A stretch of 64,000 nucleotides of DNA from Escherichia coli (lineage in GTDB: Bacteria; Pseudomonadota; Gammaproteobacteria; Enterobacterales; Enterobacteriaceae), in assembly GCF_041248615.1 (NCBI RefSeq), contig NZ_CP158426.1. One strand, written 5' to 3'. Positions 34,002-49,857 of the stretch are shown here, in pieces (the first letter of the stretch is position 1; every line of letters begins with the position of its first letter). Both the position numbers and the translations under genes were made by a program. The notes beneath the pieces were generated by a model. It saw only the letters and a list, made by a program, of their open reading frames with translations, had not been told where the DNA came from and did no database searches.

Positions 34002-34164
34002 AGCTCCTCCTTAATGACAGGGTTGCGACGCCCTGATTCTCTTCAGGGTGAATATTAAAGATAACACAAACATCGCGTAACGATTTGATAACAACCCAAA
34101 TTGATAAAAGAGGAGAAACCTTGTGGCAAAGCAAATGAAAACCCCGCCGCAGCGGGGTCAGGTA

Positions 34165-34260
34165 TCAGTGAGTAATGATCCAGAGGAATTCGGCCCAGAA
34201 GAGCATCGACAGAGAAAACGCGCCCATCCAGGACCAATATTTCATATTTGTGTTGATCAT
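34165..34260 (-). CDS. 31-aa hydrophobic small ORF upstream of acnA (possibly the small protein annotated as ymiC in K-12)
   Basis: hand translation of the minus strand gives MINTNMKYWSWMGAFSLSMLFWAEFLWIITH with an AAGGTG-like RBS; below the ORF-track length cutoff. Confidence 0.4.
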   Translation of the reverse strand: MINTNMKYWSWMGAFSLSMLFWAEFLWIITH

Positions 34261-34373
34261 AGGCTACACCTTTAACGGTTATTACTTTGTGTTGAGATAA
34301 CTCAACCTGTTATTGCTGCGGTGTATTAAAAGCCCTTTAATTCATTAAAAATGGGTAATAAGAATGATGATAA

Positions 34374-40227: not shown

Positions 40228-40905
40228 AAATGCGCCTGTAAGGCTCTGTTACCAGCCGCGCCCTAACAGGCGCATACGATCTGACATTTGCATTCAACTT
40301 CGTTACTTACGGCCCGTAAACGGGCTGCCCGGATAGGGAATCGATAACTGCTCCCCCATTTTATCCTCTTCAAGCTGGTGCTTTATGTAGTCCTGTATCT
40401 TCGCCGTGTTCTTACCCACCGTATCGACATAGTACCCTCGGCACCAGAACTCCCTGTTTCTGTATTTGAATTTCAAATCCCCAAACTGCTCGTAAAGCAT
40501 CAGACTGCTTTTCCCTTTCAGATATCCCATAAAGCCGGATACGCTCATTTTGGGTGGGATTTCCACAAGCATATGGATATGATCTGCGCAGCACTCTGCT
40601 TCCAGAATCCGTACGCTTTTCCACTCACACAGCTTTCTCAAAATACTGCCTATCGCCCTACGCTTCTCTCCGTAAAACGCCAGTCTTCGGTATTTCGGCG
40701 CAAAAACTATGTGATATTTACAGTTCCAGCGGGTGTGCGCTAAGCTCTTTTCGTCCCCCATTGGGACCCCCTTTTGATTTCTTGTTTGACACTTGCAGTT
40801 GCCAGACCGCAAGGTGTTTTAACAAATCAAAAGGGGTTTTAATAACTGGCTCAAAGCTGAAAGCTTTCCGGAACCCCCAGCCTAGCTGGGGGTTTTCTGT
40901 GCACA
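40228..40905 (-). mobile_element. IS200-type insertion sequence (IS200/IS605 family); boundaries approximate
   Basis: contains a Y1 transposase gene matching IS200 TnpA, plus the characteristic 5' structures: an end-proximal hairpin (40873..40893) and a long stem-loop (about 40767..40836) that occludes the tnpA RBS; no TSD, as expected for this family. Confidence 0.6.
40303..40761 (-). CDS. tnpA: IS200 transposase TnpA (HUH/Y1 family)
   Basis: 152-aa ORF from MGDEKSLAHTRWNCKYHIVFAPKYRR with the HxH motif (ADHIHML) and catalytic Tyr region; track ORF has a 17-aa extension. Confidence 0.9.
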   Translation of the reverse strand: MGDEKSLAHTRWNCKYHIVFAPKYRRLAFYGEKRRAIGSILRKLCEWKSVRILEAECCADHIHMLVEIPPKMSVSGFMGYLKGKSSLMLYEQFGDLKFKYRNREFWCRGYYVDTVGKNTAKIQDYIKHQLEEDKMGEQLSIPYPGSPFTGRK

Positions 40906-42208: not shown

Positions 42209-42967
42209 ATGCATTACCAGCCAAAACAAGATTTACTCAATGATCGCATTATCCTGGTGACGGGAGCCAGCGATGGTATTGGCCGTGAAGCCGCGATGAC
42301 GTATGCACGCTATGGTGCGACAGTGATTCTGTTGGGCCGTAATGAAGAAAAATTACGTCAGGTAGCCAGCCACATAAACGAAGAAACTGGACGTCAGCCA
42401 CAGTGGTTTATTCTCGATTTGCTGACCTGCACGTCCGAAGATTGCCAACAACTGGCACAGCGCATTGCCGTTAATTATCCGCGTCTGGATGGTGTTTTGC
42501 ATAATGCCGGATTGCTCGGCGATGTTTGCCCAATGAGCGAACAAAATCCGCAGGTCTGGCAGGACGTCATGCAGGTCAACGTTAATGCCACCTTTATGCT
42601 CACCCAGGCACTGCTTCCTTTATTACTCAAATCGGACGCCGGTTCACTGGTCTTTACTTCATCAAGCGTTGGACGTCAGGGACGAGCCAACTGGGGCGCA
42701 TATGCAGCGTCGAAATTTGCCACCGAAGGGATGATGCAGGTACTGGCCGATGAATATCAGCAGCGCCTGCGCGTCAACTGCATTAACCCAGGCGGTACGC
42801 GCACCGCAATGCGGGCCAGCGCCTTCCCGACCGAAGATCCACAGAAACTTAAAACACCCGCTGATATCATGCCGCTCTACCTCTGGCTGATGGGCGATGA
42901 CAGCCGCCGTAAAACCGGCATGACCTTTGACGCCCAACCGGGCCGTAAACCAGGAATTTCCCAATGA
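42209..42967 (+). CDS. yciK: short-chain dehydrogenase/reductase YciK
   Basis: 252-aa ORF with Rossmann motif TGASDGIG; matches YciK. Confidence 0.9.
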   Translation: MHYQPKQDLLNDRIILVTGASDGIGREAAMTYARYGATVILLGRNEEKLRQVASHINEETGRQPQWFILDLLTCTSEDCQQLAQRIAVNYPRLDGVLHNAGLLGDVCPMSEQNPQVWQDVMQVNVNATFMLTQALLPLLLKSDAGSLVFTSSSVGRQGRANWGAYAASKFATEGMMQVLADEYQQRLRVNCINPGGTRTAMRASAFPTEDPQKLKTPADIMPLYLWLMGDDSRRKTGMTFDAQPGRKPGISQ

Positions 42968-43554
42968 GTGATGAACGCTACCAACAGCGTCAGCAGCGAG
43001 TGAAAGAAAAAGTCGATGCTCGTGTGGCCCAGGCCCAGGATGAACGCGGTATTATCATCGTTTTTACCGGCAATGGAAAAGGCAAAACCACCGCGGCATT
43101 TGGTACGGCAACTCGTGCAGTAGGCCATGGCAAAAAAGTGGGTATCGTGCAGTTTATTAAAGGCACCTGGCCTAATGGCGAGCGCAATCTACTGGAGCCA
43201 CATGGCGTTGAGTTTCAGGTGATGGCAACGGGCTTTACCTGGGATACACAAAATCGCGAATCTGATACCGCGGCCTGCCGTGAAGTCTGGCAACATGCCA
43301 AACGAATGCTGGCCGATCCTTCACTGGATATGGTTTTGCTCGATGAGCTGACTTATATGGTGGCGTATGATTATTTGCCACTTGAAGAAGTGGTGAAGGC
43401 GTTAAATGAACGTCCACATCAGCAAACCGTCATTATTACGGGTCGTGGTTGTCATCGGGATATACTTGAACTGGCGGATACGGTAAGTGAATTACGCCCC
43501 GTGAAACATGCGTTTGATGCCGGTGTAAAAGCGCAGATAGGGATTGACTACTAA
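42964..43554 (+). CDS. btuR: cob(I)alamin adenosyltransferase BtuR (CobA)
   Basis: 196-aa ORF with P-loop GNGKGKTTAAFG; 4-nt overlap with yciK. Confidence 0.9.
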   Translation: MSDERYQQRQQRVKEKVDARVAQAQDERGIIIVFTGNGKGKTTAAFGTATRAVGHGKKVGIVQFIKGTWPNGERNLLEPHGVEFQVMATGFTWDTQNRESDTAACREVWQHAKRMLADPSLDMVLLDELTYMVAYDYLPLEEVVKALNERPHQQTVIITGRGCHRDILELADTVSELRPVKHAFDAGVKAQIGIDY

Positions 43555-43557
43555 GTG

Positions 43558-43590
43558 AAAGCACCTCAAAAGAAGCCTCTTGAGGTGCTT
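43558..43590. terminator. bidirectional hairpin between btuR and the accessory cassette
   Basis: inverted repeat agcacctcaa-aagaagcctc-ttgaggtgct flanked by A/T. Confidence 0.55.
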
Positions 43591-43605
43591 TAATCATGAT
43601 TATAT

Positions 43606-43914
43606 TCAAGCGGCAATAGCGAAATTCAGAATACGTGTAATCTCATTCAAATGTCCCGGATATGCTTCATGATTCTCAGCGTCAACATCTTCAATAAATA
43701 ATATCAGTTCAGTAATTAACGCATTAGCATCGTCATAATTTATCCCGGCTAACTCTGGCGAAGTTTCAGTACCATAGTTAATCGTCAGGTTGTTCATAAC
43801 TGTGAGGATATGGATAAAATATTTATGACAAACATTACATGTGGTTTTATTACCCAAAGTATTATACAGCATATCAAGTAATGCCAGTATTCTACGGTTT
43901 TGCACATCGTTCAT
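43606..43914 (-). CDS. hypothetical small acidic protein (102 aa), second gene of the AT-rich accessory cassette
   Basis: intact ORF; strong SD TAGGAGGC 6-7 nt upstream of the ATG; start lies 10 nt after the upstream lipoprotein stop; no signal peptide; no family recognised. Confidence 0.6.
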   Translation of the reverse strand: MNDVQNRRILALLDMLYNTLGNKTTCNVCHKYFIHILTVMNNLTINYGTETSPELAGINYDDANALITELILFIEDVDAENHEAYPGHLNEITRILNFAIAA

Positions 43915-43924
43915 AAAAAGCCTC

Positions 43925-44926
43925 CTATAACATTATTCCGCTGGCAATAAGTAATTTTGCCAGCCCCTCAGACGCCTTTAACCCACTAATGACCTGTGCG
44001 CGTAATATTTCATTTAATCTTTTTTGTTCAGCTGCCGTGCGTGTTTTATTAACGTATAAGCTTTTTAGATAATCACCCTTATCTATAAAGGCATTTAAAG
44101 CCTCAATCGCAGGCATGGCAGGTGCCGATGCCTGTAGTCTGGTTTCATTCACATTGATTACTGAACTTAGAAACTCCTTCCTGTTTTTCAGAGTGTTAAA
44201 CTCTGTATTCTTAGAGTTTTTAGATGCTGTATTATAATAAAACATATTATCATGCACATTCGCAAAGGTATAATTTTCAATCTTATTGCTTTTTGTATAA
44301 ATATCATTGCGCAAAACCGCCATGTTCTTTATAAGTCTTACCCAGTTTTCATCTGCCGTTTTGCCTATTTTTCCAGAATTGACTTTAATTATATATAACT
44401 CATTGAAATAATTTACCAAATCTTTAACCGCTGCTGCAGATTGAACTAAATCTTTGCTATGTGAAACACCAAGTAGTGTTTGTGCGTTGTTTGCGTGATC
44501 CAGAGCCTGTTTAAGTAATGCCACTTGCTGACTTTCCGTAGTTGCCATATCCTTTGTCAGAAGTTCCACATAAGCGCTCATGCTATTAATGACTTCCATT
44601 GAAGCCAGTAATTTTTCTTTCTCGAAAGGGACTAATTGTACTTGTTTTGTATTTGGCCCTGAACGCTGGCATAATTTTCCGCCATTCCCATCACCGCCTA
44701 TATCAATGGTATAATCAGGTCGCAGAGCACAATCCGGATTAGTCGCGTAGAAATTAACAAGGAAGTTTTCACGAGAAGCATAGTATTGTTTAAAGAAACT
44801 TGCATTCGCCGCTACTGCTTTGTTACCCGCAGTAATAACAGTTTCAGCTTGTTCGTTTTTCAATGCTTCAGTTGCACAACCTGAAAGCATTAACAGCGAT
44901 AGAAATATTCCACTATATCTAATCAT
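43925..44926 (-). CDS. hypothetical lipoprotein (333 aa), first gene of the AT-rich accessory cassette
   Basis: intact ORF with strong SD AAGAGGTGGG; type II signal peptide with lipobox LSGC; Ala at +2 predicts outer-membrane sorting; N/K/S-rich composition; no family recognised. Confidence 0.6.
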   Translation of the reverse strand: MIRYSGIFLSLLMLSGCATEALKNEQAETVITAGNKAVAANASFFKQYYASRENFLVNFYATNPDCALRPDYTIDIGGDGNGGKLCQRSGPNTKQVQLVPFEKEKLLASMEVINSMSAYVELLTKDMATTESQQVALLKQALDHANNAQTLLGVSHSKDLVQSAAAVKDLVNYFNELYIIKVNSGKIGKTADENWVRLIKNMAVLRNDIYTKSNKIENYTFANVHDNMFYYNTASKNSKNTEFNTLKNRKEFLSSVINVNETRLQASAPAMPAIEALNAFIDKGDYLKSLYVNKTRTAAEQKRLNEILRAQVISGLKASEGLAKLLIASGIML

Positions 44927-45051
44927 AACCCACCTCTTGACGTTGAGTTTATCTCAGATAATTAAATAGTAATGTGGCTATTTCCGGGTATTATTCATAA
45001 GCAAGTATGAAATTAAATTAAAATACTGCGACTATTTATCATGCTTCAAAT

Positions 45052-45080
45052 GAAGAAAAGGCCCCGCAGGGCCTTTATTT
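45052..45080. terminator. rluB terminator hairpin (bidirectional)
   Basis: ggccc-cgca-gggcc stem flanked by A-run and T-run. Confidence 0.55.
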
Positions 45081-45095
45081 TATACTTATCTTAAA

Positions 45096-45971
45096 TTAAC
45101 CGTTATTATTACGTCCGCCAGAACGGCGACCACCGCTCACCTGGCTATGACGTTTCACCGCACGACGAATCTGATTCGCCTTCATGCGACGACGGTCTTT
45201 TTCTACAGCGACTTTAGAGCTGGTTTCTGGCGGCAGCTCCACCAGTTCGCGCAGGTAGTTAGTCTGGGCGAGGTCCAGCTCCGTCCAGCCACCGCGTGGC
45301 AGACCTTTTGGCAGTGGGATATCACCGTAACGAACACGGATCAGGCGGCTTACCTGCACACCAACCGCTTCCCACAGACGACGAACTTCACGGTTACGGC
45401 CTTCGGTCAGAGTTACGTTGTACCACTGGTTGATCCCTTCGCCGCCGCTGAACTTGATGGTTTTAAAGGCTGCCGGACCATCTTCCAGCTGCACACCACG
45501 GCTTAAATCACGCAGTTTCGCGTCGTCAACCTGACCAAATACACGCACGGCATATTCACGTTCAACTTCACGGCTTGGGTGCATTAAACGGTTTGCCAGT
45601 TCACCATCGGTGGTGAACAGCAGCAGACCACAGGTATTAACGTCCAGGCGACCCACGGCAATCCAGCGTGCGCCACGCAGTTTTGGCAGACGGTCAAACA
45701 CCGTTGGACGTCCTTCCGGATCGTTACGGGTACACAACTCACCTTCCGGTTTGTAATAGGCCAGAACGCGACAAATTTGTTCAGCGGACTCACGTACCGA
45801 AATCAGGTGACCATCGATACGGATTTTCAATCCAGGGGTAATTTCAACACGATCGCCGAGTTTAGCAATTTTGCCATCAACACTCACACGACCGGCTTCA
45901 ATAATAGATTCGATTTCACGGCGAGAGCCGTGGCCGGCACGCGCCAGCACTTTCTGTAGCTTTTCGCTCAT
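45096..45971 (-). CDS. rluB: 23S rRNA pseudouridine(2605) synthase RluB
   Basis: 291-aa ORF matching RluB (S4 domain plus pseudouridine synthase core; Arg/Gly-rich C-terminus). Confidence 0.9.
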
Positions 45972-46181: not shown

Positions 46182-48077
46182 TTACCAACCACCACCGCCT
46201 CCGCCACCCGCACCGCCGCCAGCACCACCACCGGAATAGCTTCGCCCCAACAAACTGGTATAGGCCCCGCAACTCAGGTGCGTCTGCAATGAGAATAAAA
46301 CGCCACTACGGGCAATTTCCGGGGCGCTAACAGCCGCTGTGAGTGATGGGGTGATACGTTCTGCCCATTCTCTGCCAAGGTTTGCCGAGACCGCCCAACC
46401 TAACAATGCGTAATCCAGTTTCCGTGTTTCCCCTTTCCGCCGCCGCCCACTGTGTGTTGCCGCCTCTTTACGCGCAAGATAGTTAACGATAGCTTCACCG
46501 TGGGCATAACGTTGCTGCCCAGTTTGGGTAAACTTTGGCAGAAAAATATACCCTATGCCAGTGAGATAACCGGTCAGAAAAACAGCGCTAAAATAACCCG
46601 CTGGCATATACCAGTAAAAGAATACATCTCCGACATTGATATAGAGAGAATAAAAGGCCACGCCTGAACAAATCAGCGGTAAAAACAAAGTGATGATTAC
46701 ACAATTAACGCAAGGCTTGTCATCATCGCGGGCAAACAAAAGCTCAAGGGAACAAAATAAAAAAGGAAGAAGCCAGCAGATCATAATAAACATATCGCCC
46801 ACCAGACTCATTCCTGCCCAGCCTACGGGACTCAGGTTACCGTAGAGAATGACCGCTAATATCGCCATTCCCCCCCATTGCAAAAACGCATCAGGTCGGT
46901 AAAACGAAGACTTTTTACGCGGCAGATAAAATTTCTGCATCCGTAAAAATGCACTGCGTAAGACTCTGTTGCGTCTCCCCGTAAGAACGACCTTATCGCC
47001 TTTACGAAATAACGCTTCCAGTAATAACTTCTCTGCGGGCAGTAATACCGCATTATTTCTGGTCGCGCCTTCATTAACACGAATCAGGATTTGCTGGTTC
47101 TTGTCATACTGATCTTTCAGATGAATTTTGCCTTTCACAATCAGATTTACGATATCGGCACAAAAACCTTTATCGTCGTAAACCAGTTTCGCATCGAGAC
47201 GTAACATGCCGGGTGTGTAATCTGGCGGAATGACATCGGTTTCAATCACATCTACCGGCGTAAATTGCGGCCTGCGCTTCCAGAGATATAACCATCCACA
47301 CGCCAGGAACAGACACGGAAACCAAATTAACAACGATGACGTAGAGGGTAAAAGAAGATGGCTGAAAATATTCGTCGTTTGTGGTGCCGGGGCATTACCA
47401 AGTAAAGCGTGAGGCCAGCGGTAGAGGACCGTGAAGTCTTCACGATAAAACGGATCGCGGGATTCAATTCTTCCGTCCTCAAGGATGCGGCCATTTCGAT
47501 ATGTGTCGCCCTCTTCTCCAGTAAAGAGATCAATTTCGCTAAATGAATTACCCGCAATATCAGGCAACTGGAGAGAAAATCGGGTCTTATAGATTTCAAA
47601 CGGCCACTTGTTACCGGTCACGTTCCAGATTAACAGATCAGAATCTCCCTCACGCAGGAAAGCATTTTTAACCTGATAATGAATTTGATAATGATAGTCA
47701 CCTTGAGGCAAGAAACGTTGTTTATCGCCCACGACAATACTCATTAAACCGATATGCCAGTCAAGATGCCAGGGTTCAGGAACACCATCACGGGTGACGC
47801 CAACAATATGATAGTTCAGCAGTGCAGCGTCACCATTAGGCTGCATCCATAGTCGTGGTAAATCACGATAAAATCCGTGCTTAATCTGCTGATTTCGCGC
47901 CTGAAAATGAATGTTCTCTTTGATGTCGAGCACCCCATCCAGTTGCAGGGTGGCTTCAACATCAAAGAGCGAGATCCCTTCTTCATAAGAAGGGATCTCC
48001 GTGTTTTCTGCATAACTTAGAGATGATACAAACAGCCCTGCTATCAACAGCAAAATGCAGCGAAACTTCCCTGCCAT
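46182..48077 (-). CDS. yciQ: DUF2207-family membrane protein YciQ
   Basis: 631-aa ORF with signal peptide and multiple TM segments; C-terminal Gly/Ala tract; matches YciQ. Confidence 0.85.
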   Translation of the reverse strand: MAGKFRCILLLIAGLFVSSLSYAENTEIPSYEEGISLFDVEATLQLDGVLDIKENIHFQARNQQIKHGFYRDLPRLWMQPNGDAALLNYHIVGVTRDGVPEPWHLDWHIGLMSIVVGDKQRFLPQGDYHYQIHYQVKNAFLREGDSDLLIWNVTGNKWPFEIYKTRFSLQLPDIAGNSFSEIDLFTGEEGDTYRNGRILEDGRIESRDPFYREDFTVLYRWPHALLGNAPAPQTTNIFSHLLLPSTSSLLIWFPCLFLACGWLYLWKRRPQFTPVDVIETDVIPPDYTPGMLRLDAKLVYDDKGFCADIVNLIVKGKIHLKDQYDKNQQILIRVNEGATRNNAVLLPAEKLLLEALFRKGDKVVLTGRRNRVLRSAFLRMQKFYLPRKKSSFYRPDAFLQWGGMAILAVILYGNLSPVGWAGMSLVGDMFIMICWLLPFLFCSLELLFARDDDKPCVNCVIITLFLPLICSGVAFYSLYINVGDVFFYWYMPAGYFSAVFLTGYLTGIGYIFLPKFTQTGQQRYAHGEAIVNYLARKEAATHSGRRRKGETRKLDYALLGWAVSANLGREWAERITPSLTAAVSAPEIARSGVLFSLQTHLSCGAYTSLLGRSYSGGGAGGGAGGGGGGGW

Positions 48078-49740: not shown

Positions 49741-49785
49741 ATGAAAGCAATTTTCGTACTGAAAGGTTGGTGGCGCACTTCCTGA
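49741..49785 (+). CDS. trpL: trp operon leader peptide
   Basis: atgaaagcaattttcgtactgaaaggttggtggcgcacttcctga encodes [14 protein letters not shown] with tandem Trp codons. Confidence 0.95.
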
Positions 49786-49827
49786 AACGGGCAGTGTATT
49801 CACCATGCGTAAAGCAATCAGATACCC

Positions 49828-49857
49828 AGCCCGCCTAATGAGCGGGCTTTTTTTTGA
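49828..49857 (+). terminator. trp attenuator (3:4 terminator hairpin)
   Basis: agcccgcc-taatga-gcgggct followed by a run of 8 T. Confidence 0.95.

What the first reader, a model, noticed from the sequence alone, without database searches (positions are those of the whole stretch)
43606..43914. 102-aa acidic partner protein translationally coupled to the lipoprotein gene
The gene starts 10 nt after the lipoprotein stop, behind a near-consensus SD (TAGGAGGC), so the two are almost certainly co-transcribed and stoichiometrically co-expressed. The protein has no signal peptide, is acidic (the C-terminal half is rich in D/E), and contains a CxxC-like CNVCH motif. This pattern fits an immunity, antitoxin or regulatory partner of the upstream gene. 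It is followed directly by a bidirectional hairpin shared with btuR.
Basis: inference. Interest (0 to 1): 0.55.

Follow-up and report, generated by a model that had tools for sequence, protein, structure and literature searches.

The report
Orphan helical partner of accessory lipoprotein
This is a real, conserved 102-residue cytoplasmic four-helix-bundle protein that always travels behind an outer-membrane lipoprotein gene in a small, foreign-looking, deeply polymorphic E. coli cassette; its function is unknown, and nothing links it to known immunity, antitoxin or anti-sigma families.

Summary
Window 43606-43914 (-) is a 102-codon gene that starts 10 nt after the lipoprotein stop. The SD (TAGGAGG) overlaps that stop, and a -22 kcal/mol hairpin shared with btuR follows.

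The gene is under purifying selection (dN/dS 0.08-0.22). The same lipoprotein-plus-small-gene junction recurs in every Escherichia, Citrobacter and Duffyella copy examined.

The product is an acidic (pI 4.6), signal-less protein. AlphaFold2 models it confidently (pLDDT 94) as an up-down four-helix bundle. Cys26, Cys29 and His88 are invariant; His30 is not.

Neither protein matches Pfam, NCBIfam, PHROGs, PADLOC or PDB sequences. Fold matches are generic helical bundles.

The two genes form a 1.5-kb, 35-40% GC insert between rluB and btuR:
- 1237 of 5426 complete E. coli genomes carry it, and 4183 have the empty junction.
- At least three alleles exist, saturated at synonymous sites and sharply bounded by near-identical flanks.
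- A distant copy is AT-rich cargo on a Duffyella ICE, next to an Mrr-like nuclease gene.

Partnership and co-expression are supported. An immunity, antitoxin or regulator role is neither shown nor excluded. The lipoprotein is exported while the small protein stays cytoplasmic, so any contact must precede export. My best guess, at low confidence, is a dedicated cytoplasmic binder of the lipoprotein precursor, possibly using metal or redox chemistry, within a conflict-type envelope module.

The parts
43606..43914 (-). Gene for the 102-aa acidic cytoplasmic four-helix-bundle protein (RefSeq WP_001000710.1, 'hypothetical protein')
   Evidence: ORF; annotation; purifying selection; AF2 pLDDT 93.7 with helices 3-21, 27-41, 60-78 and 82-95; no TM or signal peptide
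43825..43839 (-). Codons 26-30, Cys-Asn-Val-Cys-His, at the N-cap of helix 2. Cys26 and Cys29 are invariant; His30 is Lys in Duffyella
43651..43653 (-). Codon His88 in helix 4, invariant in all homologues. Candidate third ligand of a Cys2-His metal or redox site (inference)
43915..43927 (-). Gene junction. The lipoprotein stop TAG (43925-43927) is overlapped by the Shine-Dalgarno TAGGAGG (43921-43927), followed by a 6-nt spacer to the ATG
   Evidence: conserved in 35 loci
43925..44926 (-). Gene for the 333-aa all-helical lipoprotein (WP_001590089.1), first gene of the operon
   Evidence: AF2 gives only low confidence (pLDDT 54), helices plus one beta-hairpin
44876..44926 (-). Signal peptide with lipobox L-S-G-C (Cys17), followed by Ala at +2 (outer-membrane sorting rule)
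   Evidence: sorting rule from established knowledge
44597..44710 (-). Hypervariable segment of the lipoprotein (codons 73-110), partly enclosed by the invariant Cys66 and Cys86. dN/dS is about 1 between alleles 1 and 2
43558..43591 (.). Bidirectional terminator hairpin shared by btuR/cobO (+) and the small gene (-)
   Evidence: dG -22.3 kcal/mol, z -3.96
45057..45076 (.). GC-rich hairpin just after rluB. It is the upstream boundary of the cassette, so the operon needs its own promoter in 44927-45056 (none identified)
43555..45095 (.). Whole 1.5-kb AT-rich (35-40% GC) accessory insert between the stops of btuR and rluB. K-12 has a 39-bp junction instead

Best explanation
The ORF is the second gene of a two-gene, horizontally acquired accessory operon made of an outer-membrane lipoprotein gene and a small helical-protein gene. 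Its product is a soluble, cytoplasmic, acidic four-helix bundle with an invariant Cys26-x2-Cys29 ... His88 triad. That triad probably forms a Zn or redox site at the N-cap of helix 2 (inferred). The SD overlaps the lipoprotein stop codon, so the protein is made from the same mRNA and probably by the same ribosomes.

The mature lipoprotein leaves the cytoplasm, so the only place the two can meet is before Sec export. I infer that the small protein is a dedicated cytoplasmic binder of the lipoprotein precursor. It would act as a holdase, escort or neutraliser, which is immunity-like or chaperone-like rather than a classical antitoxin or regulator.

The module as a whole probably acts at the envelope in some conflict, such as exclusion of phage, conjugative elements or bacteriocins, or host interaction. 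Pointers to this are a presence/absence polymorphism, ancient alleles apparently kept by balancing selection, a disulfide-framed hypervariable loop, and carriage as ICE cargo.

Shown: gene reality, pairing, junction geometry, fold, predicted compartments, population structure and foreign composition. Inferred: metal binding, physical interaction and the conflict role.
For: - The gene is real and constrained: dN/dS 0.08-0.22, frame intact in 34 of 35 loci.
- Pair and junction are conserved in Escherichia and Citrobacter at the same rluB-btuR site. They are also conserved in a Duffyella gerundensis ICE at 26% and 35% identity.
- No homologue of the small gene was found without the lipoprotein gene or its remnant.
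- The AF2 model is confident: pLDDT 93.7, pTM 0.86, four helices.
- Cys26, Cys29 and His88 are invariant. Both Cys29 and His88 fall on the hydrophobic stripe of their helices (read from the sequence).
- The acidic C-terminal half is conserved.
- The lipoprotein has a lipobox and invariant Cys66/Cys86 around a hypervariable loop.
- The cassette is 35-40% GC against 50-57% in the flanks.
- The site is binary: 1237 genomes with the cassette and 4183 empty.
- Alleles differ by 27-58% at the nucleotide level inside sharp boundaries, with 95-100% identical flanks and pS 0.79.
- The Duffyella copy sits in a 27-36% GC cargo block with an Mrr_cat gene.
- The small gene is retained where the lipoprotein gene is broken by a frameshift or by IS1.
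Against: - No interaction was tested.
- A dedicated cytoplasmic partner for a Sec-exported lipoprotein is unusual.
- The small-protein allele does not track the lipoprotein's variable centre (L005 mosaic).
- Charge complementarity is not conserved: the mature lipoprotein pI ranges from 5.9 to 8.9.
- The lipoprotein model is poor (pLDDT 54), so its fold and activity are unknown.
- PADLOC has no hit. The locus is absent from the E. coli defence-hotspot tables and from the DefensePredictor tables that could be searched.
- The link to a nuclease gene rests on a single ICE.
Confidence: 0.33

Rival explanations
1. Toxin-immunity pair. The lipoprotein is an exported or delivered toxin, analogous to myxobacterial SitA lipoprotein toxins or to colicins. 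The small acidic helical protein is its cognate cytoplasmic immunity protein.
For: - A tightly coupled small acidic helical gene lies downstream.
- The diverged block inside E. coli starts within the lipoprotein gene (codon ~73) and ends just after the small gene, like a CT/immunity module swap.
- The lipoprotein gene is inactivated in several lineages while the small gene stays intact.
Against: - No toxin domain and no invariant Arg or His appear in the lipoprotein.
- The only hint is a weak HEPN_DZIP3 hit (E ~1e-3), found in three near-identical Citrobacter sequences, without the Rx4-6H motif.
- Alleles are homologous along their whole length, and the small protein diverges less (73%) than the lipoprotein centre (55%). 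In L005 it is uncoupled from that centre.
- No delivery system for lipoprotein toxins is known in Enterobacteria (established knowledge).
- The asymmetry in gene disruption is expected from gene length alone.
Confidence: 0.17
2. The small protein is co-transcribed but works independently of the lipoprotein. It could be a cytoplasmic metal or redox sensor, or a regulator or adaptor, for example controlling expression of the AT-rich (probably H-NS-silenced) cassette or binding a host protein.
For: - The predicted compartments differ.
- The small-protein allele is uncoupled from the lipoprotein's variable centre.
- The small gene persists where the lipoprotein gene is broken.
- A CxxC at a helix N-cap is the classic geometry of redox-active or Zn-binding sites (established knowledge).
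Against: - There is no DNA-binding or other recognisable domain.
- Strict pairing and junction geometry are kept across very distant copies, including a move onto an ICE. That argues for joint function.
Confidence: 0.2
3. A two-gene defence or abortive-infection system. The lipoprotein senses or blocks an invader at the envelope. The small four-helix bundle is a membrane-disrupting executor of the MLKL, plant CC or HeLo type.
For: - The cassette is accessory, AT-rich and polymorphic.
- On the ICE it is cargo next to an Mrr-like nuclease gene.
Against: - Foldseek finds nothing below E 0.2 in AFDB50 or BFVD, so the match reflects topology only.
- The protein is acidic, without a basic lipid-binding surface.
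- No transmembrane link connects the lipoprotein to the cytoplasm.
- PADLOC gives no hit.
Confidence: 0.08
4. The CxxCH motif marks a c-type cytochrome, or the protein is a zinc-binding anti-sigma (ZAS) domain.
For: - CNVCH matches the haem c attachment motif CXXCH.
- ZAS domains are about 90-aa helical bundles with HxxxCxxC (established knowledge).
Against: - There is no signal peptide.
- His30 is Lys in the Duffyella homologue.
- The position four residues before Cys26 is an invariant Asn, not His.
- zf-HC2 and cytochrome Pfam models give no hit.
- No sigma-factor gene lies in the cassette.
Confidence: 0.02

Closest known systems
Nuclease-colicin immunity proteins (Im7/Im9) in colicin operons
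   Same: Small (~85-100 aa), acidic (pI ~4.5), four-helix cytoplasmic proteins. They are encoded directly downstream of, and co-expressed with, the gene of a protein that leaves the cell. Homologous allelic specificity groups exist.
   Different: - The upstream gene is a lipoprotein with no cytotoxic domain.
- Here the small protein diverges less than its neighbour, the opposite of colicin DNase/Im pairs.
SitA/SitI polymorphic lipoprotein toxin-immunity pairs of myxobacteria
   Same: An upstream lipobox-bearing protein and a downstream small cytoplasmic gene. The N-terminus is conserved, and the remainder plus the downstream gene is exchanged as a block.
   Different: - The lipoprotein has no recognisable toxin domain or catalytic residues.
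- Alleles are homologous throughout.
- Outer-membrane exchange machinery is not known in Enterobacteria (established knowledge).
F-plasmid TraT/TraS exclusion genes
   Same: An outer-membrane lipoprotein with allele-specific short variable regions, encoded with a second small gene next to the coupling-protein gene of a conjugative element. In the Duffyella ICE the pair lies just after the TraG/TraD-like gene.
   Different: - TraS is a hydrophobic inner-membrane protein, whereas this protein is soluble.
- No homology to TraT.
- The E. coli and Citrobacter copies are chromosomal, with no conjugation genes nearby.
Dedicated helical export chaperones (FliS; Tat REMPs such as TorD)
   Same: Small, acidic, all-helical cytoplasmic proteins encoded with the exported protein they bind before export. 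This matches the mechanism proposed here.
   Different: - No homology.
- The lipoprotein has an ordinary Sec/lipobox signal with no twin-arginine motif.
- No cofactor-bearing or flagellar substrate is involved.
MLKL, plant CC/CC-R and fungal HeLo four-helix-bundle death domains
   Different: - Identity is only 7-13%.
- De novo designed bundles score the same.
- The protein is not fused to any sensor domain, and it is acidic rather than basic.
- Foldseek is not significant.

Membership tests
Type II toxin-antitoxin system | Both partners are cytoplasmic, with a recognisable toxin domain in the neighbouring gene | tested here: not met
   The neighbour has a signal peptide and lipobox. It has no Pfam, NCBIfam or PADLOC toxin domain.
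Type II toxin-antitoxin system | The antitoxin belongs to a known antitoxin family or carries a DNA-binding fold | tested here: not met
   [not shown]
Colicin/pyocin immunity protein (Im) | Match to the Colicin_Pyocin immunity profile or the Im fold | tested here: not met
   [not shown]
Colicin/pyocin immunity protein (Im) | Adjacent bacteriocin gene with a cytotoxic domain | tested here: not met
   The adjacent gene is an orphan helical lipoprotein.
ZAS anti-sigma domain | H-x3-C-x2-C zinc motif | tested here: not met
   The sequence is N22-x3-C26-x2-C29, with Asn22 invariant. There is no zf-HC2 hit.
ZAS anti-sigma domain | Co-encoded ECF sigma factor | tested here: not met
   The cassette holds only two genes, between rluB and btuR.
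c-type cytochrome | Conserved CXXCH plus an export signal | tested here: not met
   His30 is Lys in Duffyella. There is no signal peptide.
Known anti-phage defence systems (PADLOC-DB v2) | Profile match of either protein to a known or candidate system | tested here: not met
   Zero hits for both proteins and for their Duffyella homologues.
Polymorphic lipoprotein toxin (SitA-like) | Lipobox N-terminus with the following gene exchanged together with the variable part | tested here: met
   Lipobox LSGC. The diverged block runs from codon ~73 to the end of the small gene.
Polymorphic lipoprotein toxin (SitA-like) | C-terminal toxin domain with conserved catalytic residues | tested here: not met
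   No domain was found. No Arg or His is invariant across the family.
Bacterial outer-membrane lipoprotein (the upstream partner) | Signal peptide, lipobox [LVI][ASTVI][GAS]C, and a non-Asp residue at +2 | tested here: met
   MIRYSGIFLSLLMLSG-C17-A18. The feature is conserved in all homologues. Lipidation itself cannot be tested here.
Zn- or redox-site four-helix bundle (proposed) | Ligand residues conserved and spatially adjacent; metal bound | tested here: inconclusive
   Cys26, Cys29 and His88 are invariant. They lie at the helix-2 N-cap and on the core-facing stripe of helix 4 (sequence reading). No coordinates or metal analysis were available.

The most novel reading that the evidence does not exclude
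The lipoprotein plus four-helix-bundle pair is a previously unrecognised two-component conflict system, acting in anti-phage defence, anti-conjugation, or exclusion at the envelope. The hypervariable, disulfide-framed loop of the outer-membrane lipoprotein would be the specificity determinant, kept polymorphic by balancing selection. The Cys2-His four-helix bundle would be a new kind of cytoplasmic effector or executor, possibly working like MLKL or CC domains. The system would lie outside defence islands and be shared between chromosomes and ICEs.
Probability: 0.12. Interest if true: 0.75.

Novelty: new variant of a known kind. Interest (0 to 1): 0.4.

Why it matters
About a quarter of sequenced E. 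coli carry this cassette, including ST131-type strains and other human and animal isolates. Both of its proteins are complete orphans, with no Pfam, NCBIfam, PHROG, PADLOC or PDB relatives.

The locus combines three features that usually mark genes involved in conflict with phages, plasmids, competitors or the host:
- a clean presence/absence polymorphism;
- alleles as old as the split between genera, sitting between near-identical flanks;
- a hypervariable exposed loop.

If the small protein really binds the lipoprotein precursor, it would be an unusual dedicated cytoplasmic partner for a Sec-exported lipoprotein. If the pair is a defence or exclusion module, it would be a new system found outside defence islands. 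If neither holds, it remains a well-defined, easily testable orphan operon, and the small protein already has a high-confidence structural model.

Tried and rejected
- **Family searches.** Pfam, NCBIfam, PADLOC and PHROGs on both proteins and their distant homologues gave nothing beyond signal-peptide-level matches.
- **PDB sequence profiles.** Only chance hits.
- **Lipoprotein structure.** AF2 gave pLDDT 54, too poor for a fold search.
- **Wider homologue hunts.**
  - The phmmer scan of 1.84 billion representatives found one true distant relative plus one repetitive false hit (P0043).
  - The profile word-index search added nothing.
  - The genome-contig scan found only E. whittamii and E. 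albertii.
  - The viral-contig scan found nothing.
  - The metagenome DNA-pattern scan on the conserved ANxxITELxLFI motif returned only Escherichia-type copies, plus 19 chance matches.
  - tblastn against phages found nothing. The 'plasmid' hits are mis-assigned chromosome pieces or poor assemblies.
- **HEPN lead.** A weak HEPN_DZIP3 hit occurs only in near-identical Citrobacter sequences, without the Rx4-6H motif. I judged it chance.
- **L065.** A seemingly lipoprotein-less copy turned out to be a homopolymer-ridden assembly artefact.
- **Literature.** No paper mentions the RefSeq accessions or the locus. It is absent from the E. coli defence-hotspot study and from the searchable DefensePredictor tables.
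- **RNA and promoter.** Rfam shows no RNA element in the cassette. No sigma-70-like promoter could be assigned on the operon strand.

Full report
**1. Where we are**

The window is E. coli chromosome. The region is 100% identical to NZ_OW967178.1.

The gene order is topA, yciN, IS200 tnpA, sohB, yciK, btuR/cobO (42964-43554, +), the small gene (43606-43914, -), the lipoprotein gene (43925-44926, -), rluB (45096-45971, -) and yciQ. RefSeq calls both cassette genes 'hypothetical protein' (WP_001000710.1 and WP_001590089.1).

**2.

- The 102-codon ORF starts 10 nt after the lipoprotein stop. The minus strand reads ...ATG TTA TAG GAG GCT TTT T ATG, so the SD (TAGGAGG) overlaps the stop codon and lies 6 nt before the ATG.
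- The protein has pI 4.62 and net charge -8. The split is +2 for residues 1-49 and -10 for residues 50-102. Its highest 19-residue hydropathy is 0.93, so it has no signal peptide or membrane segment.
- CNVCH is at residues 26-30.
- A 15-bp hairpin at 43558-43591 (dG -22.3 kcal/mol, z -3.96) lies between the btuR stop and the small-gene stop.
- A second hairpin at 45057-45076 follows rluB, so the cassette is bracketed by terminators.

**3. It is a real gene and a fixed partner**

- Between E. coli alleles 1 and 2, pN is 0.14 and pS 0.79. In unsaturated comparisons dN/dS is 0.08-0.22.
- The frame is intact in 34 of 35 loci. The exception is a 1.8x-coverage metagenome contig.
- Every copy found sits 9-14 nt behind a homologous lipoprotein gene with the same stop/SD overlap. 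This holds for:
  - E. coli, E. whittamii and E. albertii;
  - Citrobacter, at the same rluB-btuR site;
  - Duffyella gerundensis, the only distant relative detected among 1.84 billion representatives. Its small protein is 35% identical and its lipoprotein 26% identical (E 2e-28).

**4. What the small protein looks like**

- AlphaFold2 on an 11-sequence alignment gives pLDDT 93.7 and pTM 0.86. The model is an up-down four-helix bundle with helices 3-21, 27-41, 60-78 and 82-95, plus a short helix at 53-57.
- Residues invariant across all homologues include Cys26, Cys29, His88 and the helix-3 motif A63-N64-x2-I67-T68-E69-L70-x-L72-F73-I74. His30 is Lys in Duffyella.
- Cys26 and Cys29 sit at the N-cap and first turn of helix 2. 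Both Cys29 and His88 fall on the hydrophobic stripe of their helices (my reading of the sequence). A Cys2-His metal site or a redox-active CxxC is therefore plausible but unproven.
- The CXXCH reading as a haem c site is rejected: there is no signal peptide and His30 is not conserved.
- The ZAS anti-sigma reading is rejected: Asn, not His, lies four residues before Cys26; zf-HC2 gives no hit; and there is no sigma-factor gene.

**5. No known family**

- Pfam, NCBIfam, PADLOC and PHROGs give nothing for the small protein, and only signal-peptide-level matches for the lipoprotein.
- PDB sequence profiles give only chance hits.
- Foldseek against AFDB50 and BFVD finds nothing better than E 0.2.
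- The fold is therefore a generic four-helix bundle and says nothing specific about function.
- A weak HEPN_DZIP3 match (E about 1e-3) occurs only in three near-identical Citrobacter lipoproteins. It lacks the Rx4-6H motif, and no Arg or His is invariant in the family. I treat it as chance.

**6. The lipoprotein**

- It has a classical lipobox (LSG-C17) with Ala at +2. On the established E. coli sorting rule, that means outer-membrane targeting.
- It is predicted to be almost entirely helical, with one beta-hairpin at about residues 73-97, but the model is poor (pLDDT 54).
- Cys66 and Cys86 are invariant and frame a hypervariable segment (codons 73-110). There dN/dS is about 1 between alleles 1 and 2, against 0.12-0.17 in the rest of the gene.

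**7. Population picture**

- The cassette is a 1.5-kb, 35-40% GC insert in a 50-57% GC neighbourhood.
- K-12 has only a 39-bp junction with its own hairpin.
- Among 5426 complete E. coli genomes, 1237 carry the cassette and 4183 have the empty junction, which accounts for 5420. The site is therefore binary and is not a multi-cargo hotspot.
- Of the carriers, 424 have the window's allele. Most others share only the first ~280 bp, namely the promoter region and lipoprotein codons 1-72.
- A sliding comparison shows a sharply bounded diverged block at roughly 43560-44730. Identity between alleles there is 42-73%, while the flanks are 95-100% identical.
- Synonymous sites between alleles are saturated (pS 0.79), comparable to the E. 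coli-Citrobacter comparison. Allele 1 is shared with E. whittamii, and allele 2 resembles the E. albertii copy.
- This pattern fits long-term balancing selection or repeated allele import.
- Allele 3 (L005) is a mosaic. Its small gene and the last ~40 lipoprotein codons are allele-1-like (93% and 100%), but the lipoprotein centre is only 54% identical. The small protein therefore does not co-vary with the variable part of its neighbour.

**8. The Duffyella copy**

- The pair lies in a 2.8-kb, 27-36% GC cargo block inside a 55% GC conjugative element. It comes directly after the TraG/TraD-like coupling-protein gene and a DtrJ-like gene.
- It is convergent with an Mrr_cat nuclease-like gene that weakly hits a PADLOC candidate family (E 5e-4).
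- This is one instance of guilt by association with defence and exclusion functions, and no more than that.

**9. Gene-decay asymmetry**

- The lipoprotein gene is broken while the 102-codon gene stays intact in three settings:
  - an E. albertii lineage with a frameshift near codon 243 (L012, L061, L062);
  - E. coli CP146670.1, with an IS1 insertion near codon 60 (L063);
  - a Duffyella-like contig (L009).
- The reverse case, a damaged small gene with an intact lipoprotein gene, was seen only in one metagenome scaffold, whose deletion also removes the 3' end of btuR (L066). A frameshifted small gene also occurs on the 1.8x contig L050, which holds only the last ~22 lipoprotein codons, so that gene's state there is unknown.
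- The direction fits an immunity model. However, the lipoprotein gene is 3.3 times longer, so the counts are not significant.

**10. Interpretation**

- Firmly shown: a real, constrained gene; obligate pairing and junction geometry; a soluble four-helix bundle with an invariant Cys-Cys-His triad; an exported lipoprotein partner with a hypervariable disulfide-framed loop; foreign composition; a binary presence/absence; and ancient alleles.
- Inferred: the mature proteins occupy different compartments, so any direct contact must occur before export. I therefore favour, at confidence about 0.33, a dedicated cytoplasmic binder of the lipoprotein precursor, chaperone-like or immunity-like and possibly dependent on metal or redox state. 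It would sit within a module that acts at the envelope in some conflict.
- Rivals:
  - a true toxin-immunity pair (0.17);
  - an independently acting cytoplasmic sensor or regulator (0.20);
  - a defence system with an MLKL/CC-like executor (0.08);
  - a cytochrome or ZAS domain (0.02).
- None of these can be settled without interaction, toxicity and phenotype experiments.

**11. Verdict**

- The pair is an orphan family in a familiar two-gene layout of an exported protein plus a coupled small acidic helical cytoplasmic protein. I therefore rate it a new variant of a known kind.
- Interest is moderate (0.4). The interest lies mainly in the population genetics and in the chance that this is an unrecognised conflict module.

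Noticed in passing
window 40303-40894 (-): An IS200 tnpA gene and its 5' RNA (Rfam STnc490, 146 bits) are inserted between yciN and sohB. K-12 has no insertion at this spot.
   Followed up: partly
window 43560-44730; L003, L005: A sharply bounded hyper-divergent block inside E. coli shows 42-73% nt identity between alleles, with 95-100% identical flanks and saturated synonymous sites. Allele 3 (L005) is a recombinant: its lipoprotein centre is a third type, while its C-terminal tail and small gene are allele-1-like.
   Followed up: yes
E. coli rluB-btuR junction (L006 4729-4767 in K-12): The site is binary across 5426 complete genomes. 4183 have the empty 39-bp junction with its own hairpin and 1237 have this cassette. 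No other cargo was seen.
   Followed up: yes
L012 2898-4237; L061; L062; L063 1580-3677: The lipoprotein gene is inactivated with the small gene intact in two settings: a frameshift near codon 243 in an E. albertii lineage (including type strain NBRC 107761), and an IS1 insertion near codon 60 in E. coli CP146670.1.
   Followed up: partly
L007 4600-7350: In a Duffyella gerundensis ICE the homologous pair forms a 27-36% GC cargo block with a convergent Mrr_cat nuclease-like gene (weak PADLOC PDC-S02 hit, E 5e-4). The block lies between the coupling-protein/DtrJ-like genes and the RAQPRD (PilL-like) gene.
   Followed up: partly
P0035/P0036/P0038 residues 137-212 (Citrobacter lipoprotein orthologues): A weak Pfam HEPN_DZIP3 match (E 8.5e-4 to 1.5e-3) is absent from the E. 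coli and Duffyella homologues and lacks the Rx4-6H motif. It is probably chance.
   Followed up: yes
PLSDB records NZ_CP134663.1, CP054253.1, CP054249.1; L017; L065 (CP116919.1): Three 'plasmid' records that carry the cassette are chromosome pieces or frameshift-ridden assemblies. CP116919.1 has a homopolymer-garbled stretch where the lipoprotein gene should be.
   Followed up: yes
window 46182-48077 (-): YciQ (DUF2207) ends in a long Gly-rich tail (SGGGAGGGAGGGGGGGW).
   Followed up: no
window 34131-34333 (-) and 49762-49855 (+): Rfam matches to the sRNA STnc180 (199 bits) and to the trp operon leader, as expected for this chromosomal region.
   Followed up: no
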